This document shows, one piece after another, positions 15,001-18,000 of a stretch of DNA of 64,000 nucleotides. Source of the stretch: Candidatus Saccharimonadota bacterium (lineage in GTDB: Bacteria > Patescibacteriota > Saccharimonadia > CAILAD01 > BJGX01); assembly GCA_016191105.1 (NCBI GenBank), contig JACPPH010000002.1, positions 3,049 through 67,048 on the forward strand, given 5' to 3'. Every line of letters begins with the position of its first letter. The stretch's first letter is position 1. The position numbers were made by a program.

Positions 15001-18000
15001 AAAGAACGTAAAAAATACGGGCTCAAGAAGGCCCGCAAGGCTCCACAATTTAGTAAGCGTTAGTTTATATCAAAAAAGACCCCGAGAGGGTCTTTTTTGA
15101 TTGCTCAACAGATTAGGATCGAACAATCTAAGTGTTCAATGTGTTGTAATATGTTTTTGGCCGACTCACAATTTAGAATGATTTCTAAACTCTGAGTCGG
15201 GCCCCCGAAGGGTACCCGCTCATTGCGTATCGCTTCGGAGGCGTTTTTAGCGGCGGTAGATGAAGGTGCTGCCTGGGCCCGCGTAGACGAACGTGTATTG
15301 ACCCCTGCGGATAGCAGTGCCAGTAGGCACAGGTACGTCGATAGTGAGCTCACACCTTCGCCGGTTCACCCACTTCGAGAAACCTGACATCGTCTTGTCT
15401 TCGTAGATACGCATCCTTGGAGCCCAGACACTGATAGTTGTATCCTGGTCTGGGAGGTCGGTGGTTCGTCCAACAAGTTCGAAGCTCGAGGTGCCATTGA
15501 AGGGACCATCGTTGTAGAGCCTGGCCATGAAGCCGCTGATCTCTTCGATCGATGGCCCCTCGGTGATGGTGAAGATCTTGCTCAGGCGCTCGTCCTCGAA
15601 CCCGAAGGCGGTGTCGAACACCACCTGCCGATCGTTTGGATGGGTAATACTGATGTTGTTGGCCATGGGGTTCTCCTCATTGTAGCCAATTGGTACCAGG
15701 ACGGACCGTCCGTCGAGATAGGTATTACAATAAAAGCACATAAAAATCAAGTACATTTTTGACCAAACCGCAACTTAGAATAAGCTTCTAAGCTCTGGTT
15801 CGGCCGGCCCCCGTGTATACGGGAGCCGGGTGGCCGAAGTTCAGGACTTCTTGCGCATGGCGTTCTTCTCACCGGGCCACGGGAAGATCGCCTCTGCAGG
15901 CGTACCAGAATGCGGACTTCACGATCGCGCGCTGGTAGGTGCGAACGTTCTCTGGTGTGACCGTGATCGGGTCGAACTTGTACCCGTAGAAGTGCACACT
16001 CTTGTACAGCAGTCCGACGTCGTTCTCGTTGCATCGAATGAGGAAGGCTGCGATGATGTCATCGATCCCAACCTTGTTTTGCAGAGCGAACTCCGCAGCG
16101 GTTTGGGCAAGGGAGACGAAACCAGCGGCGAAGTCTCTCCGGAGTGTGGCCCCGAGTTGATCGGCAGTTTTCGTAGTCTTGGGCATTTCCTCTCCTTGCT
16201 AGGCGGGCAAGCTCTCGGCTTGTCCGACGAACATGGTCTTGAGCTTCTCGATCTTCTGCTCGAGTTCGCGTAGGGTGTCTTCGACTTCGCCAAGGTCTTC
16301 GAGGCCATCGGCATCAACCCCCGCGACCGCAGCGATTCGTTCGCGGGCGACGTGGATGTTGCCAATGGCACCACTTACTTTCACACCGCCCATCGTGATG
16401 AATCCGACGGTTGACTCCCAGTCTTGCTTGGTTGCTTCAATCGGCACGTTGCTACCAACTTTCTTTGTAGATGAGCTTAAGGCTTTTACATGTTATAATA
16501 AAATAAACTAAAAGTCAAGTGTTTTTGGTTGAATTTTAAGGTATAATACTCTTATGGTAGACGCCAAGCTAATTCGTAAGCTAATATTCTTTTCGGTTCT
16601 AATTATAGCGACCGGAGCGACAGTCTTGTCGTTAACCGAACAGATAAGCTTTGTTGAAGGGCTGTACCGAAGCGTGTACTTGGTGCTGGCTCACCACGAC
16701 AATTTCTATACCAAGGGCTTAATACCTAGGCTAACAGTAGTGGGGTTAATCGTCTCCAGCTTGGTGATCATAGGCTATTTGATAAAAATTCTGGCAGATT
16801 ATATGATTAACCTAGGCGATGGCCTAAAAAGGAACAAAGTGAAAGCACAACTACTACACACCAAAGAACACTTTATTATTTGCGGTTTAGGCCGGGTGGG
16901 CAGCCAGGTGGCGCGCGAGCTGGCCGACGAACATTTGCCGTTTGTGGCTATCGATCGCGACGAAGACAAGGTAAAAGAGGCCATTAAGTGCGGCTACACA
17001 GCCTTTGTGGGCGACAGCACCAAAGAAGAAGTCTTGGCCAAAGCCAAGATCGACAAGGCCAAAGGCTTGGTAGCAGCTCTGGGCGAAGATTATCATAATC
17101 TTTTTGTAACCTTAGCCGCGCGCCAGATTAACCCGGGGTTGTTTATTGTGGCTAGGGTTAATAACGAGGCCAACAAAGAGCGCATGTTGCAGGCCGGTGC
17201 CGATAAGGTGGCTCAGCCCAGCCAAATTGGTGGCTTTCATATGGCGGCCATGGTATTACGACCCAATGTTGTCGATTTTTTGGAGGTGCTAAGTACCAAC
17301 AAGAACTCCGAACTTCAGGTCGAAGAACTGGTGGTGCCCAGGCACTCCAAGGTGATTGGCGACCGCTTAAGCACACTGGCTAACCATAATACCGGCGCGA
17401 CGGTGTTGGCTATTAACAATGCCGATGGCGGTAGCCGGGTAAATCCATCGGGCAAAGAAATGATTTATGCTGGCGATAAACTGATTGTAATGGGTACTCG
17501 CACCCAACTCGATGCTTTAAGCACCCACGTTTAAACTCATGAAGAATCGTGTCCAAAGCGGGGGAGGGCAAGGCGATGTTGAAGTTATTTTTCGAAATAA
17601 CGATGTAATTGTAGTTAACAAGCCGGCTGGGCTGTTGACCCACCCAACAAGCGAGAAACCAAATGAGCCATCGGTAGCTGGCATTTTTAAATCAGAAGTT
17701 GAAGATGCCGATGAACTGCGGCCGGGCATTGTGCACCGGCTCGACAAAGATACCTCGGGTGTAATGATTTTGGCACGTAACCCAAAAACCAAAGAATTTT
17801 TGCAGGCTCAATTTAAAGACCGCGCAGTTCGCAAACAGTATTTGAGCCTGGTGTGGGGGCGTATGCCGCACGCACGAGCTCGACTAGAGTTGCCGATTGC
17901 TCGTAGTTTGCAAAAAGGCAATACCATGCGTGTGAGTCACGCGGGCAAGATGGCGGTTTCGGAGTATGCTGTTGAACGAGAGTTTAGTGACTTTGACTTG

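What the first reader, a model, noticed from the sequence alone, without database searches (positions are those of the whole stretch)
15150..15870. Duplicated ~35-nt motif (TTAGAA-N4-TTCTAA next to a G+C hairpin) downstream of two adjacent islet genes
Two related copies exist: 15173-15235, cacaaTTTAGAATgatTTCTAAaCTCTGagTCGGGcccccgaaggg, and 15768-15850, gcaacTTAGAATaagcTTCTAAgCTCTGgtTCGGccggcccccgtg. Each lies just 3' of a reverse-strand gene. Each combines a short palindrome (TTAGAA/TTCTAA) with a stable G+C hairpin. This suggests a modular, cassette-like duplication or a shared protein-binding/processing site rather than chance.
Basis: seen in the sequence. Interest (0 to 1): 0.55.

Follow-up and report, generated by a model that had tools for sequence, protein, structure and literature searches.

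The report
Conserved double-hairpin RNA after orphan genes
The repeated motif is the top of a 40-nt RNA hairpin that always sits directly against a G+C hairpin just after small, G+C-rich orphan genes in Saccharibacteria; it is a real, conserved and so far undescribed 3'-end RNA element whose job (probably mRNA 3'-end protection or processing) is still unproven.

Summary
The two copies align far better than shuffled controls (z = 10.6), and a covariance model finds only these two in 64 kb.

The TTAGAA/TTCTAA palindrome is not a stand-alone site. It is the upper stem of a 17-bp hairpin (HP2: CCGAnnCA-G-AGyTTAGAA-loop-TTCTArrTT-G-nGnnTyGG). A sequence-variable G+C hairpin (HP1) abuts it with no linker.

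The window is from a Candidatus Saccharibacteria MAG. The same HP1-HP2 unit occurs once per locus in the ten other distinct contigs folded. It is almost always after a fast-evolving, GC3-rich orphan ORF wedged between a trkA-like gene and rpsI.

Eleven copies give four compensatory pairs, an invariant G-U and other wobbles. These work only on the gene-sense strand, so the element acts as RNA, or as sense ssDNA.

The apex varies (4-5-nt loop or a 12-nt palindromic insert), which excludes a fixed-spacing dsDNA operator or Xer-type site. There is no U-tract, no Rfam match, no attC boxes, and no phage or plasmid match.

The window has a second copy because an orphan two-gene module carrying its own promoter and its own, diverged HP1-HP2 sits inside the resident promoter.

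Most likely this is a cis-acting 3'-UTR RNA element. Function is inferred, not shown.

The parts
15161..15200 (-). HP2 copy 1: conserved 17-bp hairpin CCGACUCA-G-AGUUUAGAA-AUCA-UUCUAAAUU-G-UGAGUCGG.
   Evidence: Folds. CM R1 scores it 72 bits. Covariation.
15201..15242 (-). HP1 copy 1: G+C-rich hairpin (outer stem GCCUCCGAAG/CUUCGGGGGC). It starts 7 nt after the stop codon of gene C and abuts HP2 with no linker.
   Evidence: The same hairpin occurs in L002.
15763..15803 (-). HP2 copy 2: CCGAACC-AG-AGCUUAGAA-GCUUA-UUCUAAGUU-GC-GGUUUGG. The G-U pairs form only on this strand.
   Evidence: CM R1 scores it 68 bits.
15804..15829 (-). HP1 copy 2: 11-bp G+C hairpin CCGGCUCCCGU-AUAC-ACGGGGGCCGG, abutting HP2.
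15247..15666 (-). Gene C: 139-aa orphan ORF with GC3 0.72. The only convincing relative is P0002 (217 aa), found at the same locus in L002.
15869..16186 (-). Gene B: 105-aa orphan ORF with GC3 0.73 and an AAGGAGAGG Shine-Dalgarno sequence. Its only database hit is itself.
16199..16447 (-). Gene A: orphan ORF of up to 82 aa with GC3 0.69, first gene of the A-B module.
15722..15750 (-). Promoter-like region of gene C (TTGATT at 15750-15745 plus a TGTAAT-type -10). Its -10 and 5'-UTR half is homologous to the L002 promoter.
16490..16518 (-). Promoter-like region of the A-B module (TTGACT-17-TAACAT). Its -35 and upstream half matches the L002 promoter exactly over 18 nt (AAAAACACTTGACTTTTA).
15700..15714 (-). 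5'-UTR hairpin GACGGAC/GUCCGUC of gene C, conserved in L002.
15072..15098 (.). Canonical bidirectional intrinsic terminator (A6-GACCCC...GGGGTC-T6). It is shared by rpsI (+) and, about 60 nt past HP2, by gene C (-).
   Evidence: The same arrangement occurs in L002, L018, L019 and L024.

Best explanation
The motif belongs to a bipartite, cis-acting RNA element in the 3' untranslated region of small GC3-rich orphan genes of Saccharibacteria.

Shown:
- The element is transcribed-strand specific.
- A G+C-rich hairpin of free sequence (HP1) is followed, with no intervening base, by a 17-bp hairpin (HP2). HP2's sequence and pairing are strongly conserved, including one fixed purine-purine or wobble interruption and an invariant G-U.
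- The apex of HP2 is free to vary.
- The unit lies between the stop codon and, in most loci, a canonical terminator shared with the convergent rpsI operon.

Inferred:
- The two hairpins stack coaxially into a helix of roughly 30 bp, which is recognised by a conserved trans-acting factor. The best guess is a double-strand-specific or structure-specific RNase or RNA-binding protein.
- The element defines and/or protects the mRNA 3' end, keeping these transcripts stable. This would fit their unusual G+C-rich coding regions and, for gene C, a 5'-terminal hairpin.
- It is not itself a classical intrinsic terminator.

The window has two copies because a second promoter-ORF-HP1-HP2 module (genes A-B) has been added upstream of the resident gene C module.
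For: Structure: minus-strand folds have z = -6.9 and -4.6. In six copies, 95% of cells are paired and 4 pairs show compensatory changes, while slid controls pair at 19-52%. In eleven copies, 93.5% are paired, with 4 compensatory pairs and an invariant G-U. U-G wobbles occur at two further pairs (5/11 and 3/11) and G-U at a third (2/11).

Strand: the sense hairpin is more stable than the antisense by 5-10 kcal/mol in 7 of 11 copies. The lower stem of copy 2 does not form on the + strand.

Geometry: HP1 ends exactly one base before HP2 in 12 of 12 folded loci, although the HP1 sequences differ.

Conservation: there is one copy per locus, always 3' of the ORF between trkA and rpsI, in L002, L011, L014-L020 and L022-L024. 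HP2 is 81-86% identical between the window and a clade whose S9 proteins are only 57-61% identical.

Independence from the ORF: the element follows ORFs with no demonstrable homology to each other, namely C, B, the 150-aa family and L004 ORF2.

A canonical terminator lies 5-60 nt further downstream in most loci, so HP1-HP2 would be inside the transcript.
Against: There are no expression or 3'-end data, so the RNA role rests on wobble pairs and covariation from only 11 sequences, some of them closely related. Three identical L011-type copies and L016 fold about equally well on both strands. G-T pairs are also tolerated in ssDNA hairpins, so a sense-strand ssDNA role is not excluded. No trans factor has been identified. 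Strong sequence conservation inside a helix is unusual for a purely protective hairpin. The element lies upstream of a co-oriented promoter or gene in copy 2 and in L004, so a role for the downstream unit cannot be ruled out.
Confidence: 0.5

Rival explanations
1. HP2, as a folded single DNA strand or as duplex, is a recombination site that delimits mobile promoter-bearing gene cassettes. It would be attC-like, HUH-transposase-like or serine-recombinase-like. The duplicated motif would mark two captured cassettes.
For: The element sits at the 3' boundary of ORFs with no demonstrable homology to one another. The A-B module is an insertion relative to L002 and brings its own, diverged HP2. In L004 the element is at a different locus. 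Like attC sites, it has a conserved base, a fixed helix interruption and a variable apex. The cassette ORFs have foreign-looking GC3. A serine recombinase gene lies 5 kb away, at 20941-21684.
Against: There is one copy per locus, and it is syntenic and vertically conserved between trkA and rpsI across lineages with 57-91% S9 identity. There are no R''/R' attC boxes (RYYYAAC/GTTRRRY) in either orientation (direct reading). The junctions of the A-B insertion lie in the promoter (ACTTGAYTTTTA), not in HP2. No matches were found in IMG/VR, phage or plasmid collections. The recombinase belongs to a separate low-GC island next to tRNA genes.
Confidence: 0.15
2. HP1-HP2, with or without the downstream terminator hairpin, is released as a stable small RNA derived from the 3' UTR. 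It would act in trans, for example by titrating a protein.
For: The three-hairpin layout HP1-HP2-terminator in L002, L018, L019 and L024 resembles 3'-UTR-derived sRNAs. Sequence conservation exceeds that of the neighbouring protein genes. The element is independent of which ORF lies upstream.
Against: The conserved bases are in helices and the loop is the variable part, so there is no obvious single-stranded seed. No internal promoter was detected. There are no expression data.
Confidence: 0.15
3. HP1-HP2 is a factor-dependent or U-tract-less ('I-shaped') transcription terminator, or conversely a put-like two-hairpin RNA that modifies RNA polymerase.
For: HP1 is a strong G+C hairpin immediately after the ORF. 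Other GC3-rich ORFs in this genome also end in G+C hairpins without T-runs, for example at 53820-53845. Two adjacent hairpins acting in cis recall HK022 put RNA (from memory, not tested). In copy 2 and in L004 the element lies between co-oriented genes.
Against: No U-tract follows either hairpin, and the terminator scan does not call them. A canonical terminator follows a few bases later in most loci, which makes a second terminator redundant. Antitermination there would drive antisense transcription into the rpsI operon. HP1-only endings show that HP2 is not needed for whatever HP1 does.
Confidence: 0.12
4. TTAGAA-N4-TTCTAA is a double-stranded DNA operator or recombinase core site, bound by a dimeric DNA-binding protein (repressor/activator, or Xer/dif-like).
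For: A perfect 6-4-6 or 7-4-7 palindrome is typical of dimeric HTH operators. In copy 2 it lies about 40 bp upstream of the -35 of gene C.
Against: The spacing between half-sites is 4, 5 or 18-19 nt in different loci. The lower stem outside the palindrome covaries to keep pairing, which a duplex site would not need. Wobble substitutions are strand-asymmetric. In copy 1 and most other loci there is no downstream promoter, only a terminator.
Confidence: 0.04

Closest known systems
Intrinsic (Rho-independent) terminators and 3' stem-loop mRNA stabilisers
   Same: A G+C-rich hairpin directly after the stop codon, on the sense strand, at the 3' end of a transcription unit.
   Different: No U-tract follows. 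A second, sequence-conserved hairpin is fused to the first with no linker. A canonical terminator usually follows separately.
RNase III processing hairpins of phage T7 early mRNAs (R1.1 type; from memory, not tested)
   Same: An irregular hairpin of about 20 bp with a conserved internal interruption, placed between or after genes. Cleavage of such hairpins leaves a protective 3' hairpin.
   Different: No cleavage data exist. The interruption here is a single mismatch or a 2x2 loop. The helix sequence is conserved, which RNase III does not require.
Integron attC sites
   Same: Located at the 3' end of each cassette; strand-specific folded hairpin; conserved base; fixed helix irregularity; variable apex; sequence differs between cassettes.
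   Different: There are no RYYYAAC/GTTRRRY boxes. The cassettes carry their own promoters. The element is single-copy, syntenic and vertically inherited. No integron integrase or array is seen.
REP / BIME-type extragenic palindromes
   Same: Extragenic imperfect palindromes located 3' of genes, and thought to affect mRNA stability.
   Different: REPs occur in tens to hundreds of copies per genome. Here there are two copies in 64 kb and one per related locus.
HK022 put RNA (from memory, not tested)
   Same: Two adjacent hairpins with an essentially absent linker, acting in cis on the nascent transcript.
   Different: put lies just downstream of promoters and upstream of the terminators it overrides. 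There is no sequence similarity and no Rfam hit.

Membership tests
Intrinsic terminator | G+C-rich stem-loop on the transcribed strand | tested here: met
   HP1 is present in both copies.
Intrinsic terminator | Run of U within 0-2 nt after the stem | tested here: not met
   HP1 is followed directly by HP2. HP2 is followed by CCAAAAA or UCAAAAA. The terminator scan calls neither site on the minus strand.
Integron attC | R'' (RYYYAAC) and R' (GTTRRRY) boxes at the two ends of the hairpin | tested here: not met
   The outer arms are CCGAnnCA / nGnnTyGG in all copies. There is no AAC...GTT in either orientation.
Integron attC | Array of promoterless cassettes next to an intI integrase and attI | tested here: not met
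   Each module has its own promoter-like region. Related loci carry a single copy. No integrase is adjacent. The only recombinase seen is a serine recombinase in a separate island.
REP / MITE-like repeat | Many dispersed copies per genome | tested here: not met
   With filters off, the covariance model finds 2 copies in 64 kb and 1 per 1-10-kb related locus.
Xer/dif-like or dimeric-operator dsDNA site | Two half-sites at fixed spacing | tested here: not met
   The spacer is 4, 5 or 18-19 nt.
Any Rfam 15 family | Score at or above the family gathering threshold | tested here: not met
   Nothing scored at gathering threshold in the region. The best sub-threshold hits have E of 0.6 or more.
Conserved structured cis-RNA (generic) | Pairing maintained by compensatory and wobble changes, better than register-shifted controls | tested here: met
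   93.5-95% of cells are paired against 19-54% in slid controls, with 4 compensatory pairs. The sample is small (11 sequences).
RNase III substrate | Cleavage by RNase III in a helix of about 20 bp | not testable with these tools
   Only the helix length and the internal interruption are compatible.

The most novel reading that the evidence does not exclude
HP1-HP2 is the signature of a previously unrecognised cassette system in episymbiotic CPR bacteria. In this reading, promoter-ORF-double-hairpin modules carrying foreign-looking, GC3-rich orphan genes are captured, swapped and stacked at a hotspot beside the ribosomal-protein operon. HP2 would serve as the strand-specific recognition structure, for recombination or for a dedicated RNA-handling machinery.
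Probability: 0.12. Interest if true: 0.75.

Novelty: new member of a known kind. Interest (0 to 1): 0.45.

Why it matters
Saccharibacteria and other CPR bacteria have tiny genomes with little room for non-coding sequence, and almost nothing is known about how they control RNA. Here a 40-nt hairpin is better conserved than the neighbouring ribosomal protein genes. It is fused to a second hairpin and tied to fast-evolving orphan genes whose codon composition is out of line with the genome. That makes it a concrete, testable handle on post-transcriptional control, or on gene-cassette turnover, in these organisms. Saccharibacteria are naturally transformable (abstract of PMC10633639, listed), so HP2 mutants should be makeable in cultivated strains that carry the locus. 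If the element proves to be only an mRNA 3' stabiliser, it is a modest addition to the catalogue of bacterial RNA motifs.

Tried and rejected
- Chance or ubiquity: rejected by the shuffle tests and the covariance-model scan.
- Third TTAGAA..TTCTAA at 20137: it lies in coding sequence and gets no covariance-model signal.
- Rfam: nothing found.
- Function of the ORFs:
  - Pfam, PHROGs and PADLOC gave nothing.
  - The exhaustive HMMER search of C found only itself, P0002 and two giant repeat proteins. Their scores come from summed weak repeats (MBG and FAINT domains) and I regard them as spurious.
  - AlphaFold of C alone was unusable (pLDDT 34).
  - The model of the 150-aa family (pLDDT 60) had no PDB fold match with E below 0.1.
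- Homology between C, the 150-aa family, B and L004 ORF2: only a short CEL-V-V..G..Y.GP-like motif is shared. hhalign gave probability 0.5-3.5%, so homology is not established.
- Phage or plasmid origin: no tblastn or blastn hits, and the IMG/VR pattern hits were chance.
- First, strict metagenome pattern: it found nothing. The looser pattern found two real copies and two chance hits. Of the 8 genome-contig hits, only one (L004) was real.
- Many related contigs end just after HP2. I considered structural variation, but the perfect 30-nt palindromic terminator there is a sufficient assembly-break explanation.
- The 9-nt direct repeat CCAAAAACA at both ends of the islet looked like a target duplication, but it is explained by A-tracts (UP-element-like and terminator A-run).
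- Literature searches found no description of this element.

Full report
**Setting**

The window comes from a Candidatus Saccharibacteria metagenome-assembled genome; NCBI names gene C 'hypothetical protein HYX70_00240'. The finding lies in a 1.4-kb stretch of raised G+C (0.54-0.58, against about 0.46 for the window). This stretch sits between the end of the rpsK-rpsD-rpoA-rplQ-rplM-rpsI operon on the + strand (rpsI ends at 15063, with a canonical bidirectional terminator at 15072-15098) and a trkA-like gene on the + strand (from 16554).

All three ORFs in the stretch are on the minus strand:
- A, 16199-16447
- B, 15869-16186
- C, 15247-15666

Their GC3 is 0.69-0.73, against 0.48-0.56 for the neighbouring genes.

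**Observation**

The quoted sequences are correct.
- TTAGAA-N2-6-TTCTAA occurs three times, against 0.04 expected.
- Read on the gene strand, each copy consists of two hairpins. A G+C hairpin (HP1: 15201-15242; 15804-15829) is followed without any linker by a 40-41-nt hairpin (HP2: 15161-15200; 15763-15803).
- The TTAGAA/TTCTAA palindrome is only the upper stem of HP2. The lower stem is CCGACUCA/UGAGUCGG in copy 1 and CCGAACC/GGUUUGG in copy 2.
- The RNA folds of the minus strand have z = -6.9 and -4.6. On the + strand the lower stem of copy 2 is lost, because its G-U pairs become C-A.

**Relatives**

Pattern scans and protein-guided look-ups recovered the same element in ten other distinct Saccharibacteria contigs that were folded; four further contigs carry the same versions.
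- L002 has the same trkA/rpsI locus, a single module and a 217-aa homologue of C.
- L004 has the element at a different locus, after an unrelated 201-aa GC3-rich ORF.
- L011 and L014 were found by pattern scan.
- L015-L020, L022-L024 and L032 came from a profile search that defined a 150-aa orphan family, P0006-P0011.
- In every locus long enough to judge, the order is trkA-like gene (opposite strand), promoter, ORF, HP1, HP2, then the rpsI operon converging. A covariance model built on six copies (R1) finds exactly one HP2 per locus, just after the ORF. It finds only the two copies in the 64-kb window.
- Nothing matched in IMG/VR, the phage records or the plasmid records, nor in Rfam.

**Structure evidence**
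- On six copies, the 17-pair hairpin has 95% of cells paired and four pairs with compensatory changes. Register-shifted controls pair at 19-52%.
- On eleven copies (an alignment fitted to the model), 93.5% of cells are paired, against 22-54% in the controls. There are again four compensatory pairs, an invariant G-U, U-G wobbles in 5/11 and 3/11 sequences at two further pairs, and G-U in 2/11 at a third.
- These wobbles exist only on the gene-sense strand. Accordingly, the sense hairpin is 5-10 kcal/mol more stable than the antisense in 7 of 11 copies.
- HP1 differs in sequence between lineages, apart from a loosely shared CCAGCC/GGCUGG base. It nevertheless ends exactly one nucleotide before HP2 in 12 of 12 loci.
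- The apex of HP2 is free. It is a loop of 4-5 nt (7 in L020, L024) or, in L016, L018 and L019, carries a 12-nt palindrome, CGCCAGCTGGCG. This insert is absent from L020, which encodes the identical protein to L019.
- The variation in half-site spacing excludes a fixed-geometry duplex site for a dimeric protein or a Xer-type recombinase.

**Conservation**

The window genome is distant from the L015 clade: S9 proteins are 57-61% identical and TrkA 54-57%. Yet the HP2 stem columns are 81-86% identical. The two window copies are only 78% identical to each other. Copy 1 is 97% identical to L002, and copy 2 is closest (86%) to L011 and L004. The second copy is therefore not a recent local duplication.

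**How the window came to have two copies**

I aligned the region upstream of the L002 gene with the regions upstream of A and of C.
- The A promoter shares with L002 the trkA-proximal part through TTGACTTTTA.
- The C promoter shares with L002 the -10 region, the 5'-UTR hairpin GACGGAnGGUCCGUC and the Shine-Dalgarno region.

Relative to L002, the segment from the -10 of A through A, B, HP1, HP2 and a second -35 (roughly 15745-16500) is therefore an insertion inside the resident promoter. In effect, a complete promoter-ORF-HP1-HP2 module has been added. B has no relative among 5.8 billion clustered proteins.

**What it does**

No experiment is available, so this part is inference.
- It is not a classical intrinsic terminator. 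There is no U-tract, and a canonical terminator follows within 5-60 nt in most loci.
- It is not attC: the R boxes are absent, the cassettes have promoters, and the element is a single syntenic copy.
- It is not REP-like, because the copy number is too low.
- The strand-specific pairing, the fixed zero-linker geometry, the sequence conservation inside the helix and the variable apex fit best an RNA structure in the 3' UTR that is recognised by a conserved factor. I propose 3'-end processing and/or protection as the most likely role. This would fit the G+C-rich coding regions and, for gene C, a hairpin at the predicted 5' end.
- Rivals that remain open are a strand-specific recombination site for cassettes, a 3'-UTR-derived small RNA, and a factor-dependent terminator or antiterminator.

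**The ORFs**

C, B, the 150-aa family and L004 ORF2 show no demonstrable homology to each other. They match no Pfam, PHROGs or PADLOC family and have no phage matches. Codon comparisons within the two alignable pairs show many synonymous differences (33 and 31, against 57 and 64 non-synonymous), with the ORFs preserved, so these are real genes. The structure model of the 150-aa family (pLDDT 60) has no significant PDB neighbour.

**Verdict**

This is a real, conserved and apparently undescribed bipartite RNA element. It is modest in architecture but unusually well conserved, and it is tied to an odd class of genes in a poorly understood phylum. But the motif is part of a larger RNA hairpin and is mainly a vertically inherited companion of one locus.

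Noticed in passing
window 52560-53830: A second GC3-rich islet lies between rplA and a DHFR-like gene. It holds two divergent orphan ORFs (52605-53204 minus, 199 aa; 53370-53813 plus, 147 aa with CxxC pairs) flanking an AT-rich divergent promoter region. The + ORF ends in a G+C hairpin (about 53820-53845) without a T-run and without HP2.
   Followed up: partly
window 15247-16447; L015:5001-5453; L018:5001-5456; L024:790-1266: The syntenic ORF between trkA and rpsI keeps GC3 at 0.63-0.75 (0.50 in L016) in genomes whose neighbouring genes have GC3 of 0.29-0.56. The gene appears vertically inherited, so the skew is either unusually persistent after an old transfer or maintained by selection or biased gene conversion.
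   Followed up: partly
L015:5582-5967 versus L014:680-1084: The roughly 400-bp non-coding stretch just downstream of HP2 is inverted between two related contigs (81% identity over 281 nt on opposite strands). Colinearity of the gene region ends exactly at the 3' end of HP2. This may be an invertible or rearranged segment. The window lacks this stretch.
   Followed up: partly
L016:3741-3765, L018:5537-5556, L019:5539-5558 (apex of HP2): A 12-nt perfect palindrome, CGCCAGCTGGCG, is inserted at the apex of HP2 in some lineages. It is absent from L020, which encodes the same protein (P0010) as L019. This indicates rapid turnover of the hairpin tip.
   Followed up: no
window 20700-28000: A low-G+C island (0.36-0.41) lies next to a tRNA gene cluster (19796-20033 and 20604-20677). 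It contains a serine recombinase (20941-21684, minus), two orphan ORFs, a DUF3800 protein (24593-25213), an ABC-F-type ATPase and an APH-family phosphotransferase. It is probably an integrated element.
   Followed up: partly
window 25212-25281 (minus): There is an Rfam DUF3800-IX RNA match (66.9 bits, gathering threshold 36.8). It overlaps the last two bases of the DUF3800 gene and lies on the opposite strand.
   Followed up: no
window 15700-15714 (minus); L002:297-311: A perfect 7-bp hairpin, GACGGAC/GUCCGUC, lies near the predicted 5' end of the gene C transcript and is conserved in L002. It may be a 5' stabiliser or an operator.
   Followed up: no
L004:1-700 and 2500-3960: The other Saccharibacteria MAG carries further small orphan ORFs with raised G+C. 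One has GC3 of 0.96 (40-525). Each is followed by a G+C hairpin and then a TTGACA-type promoter, without HP2.
   Followed up: partly
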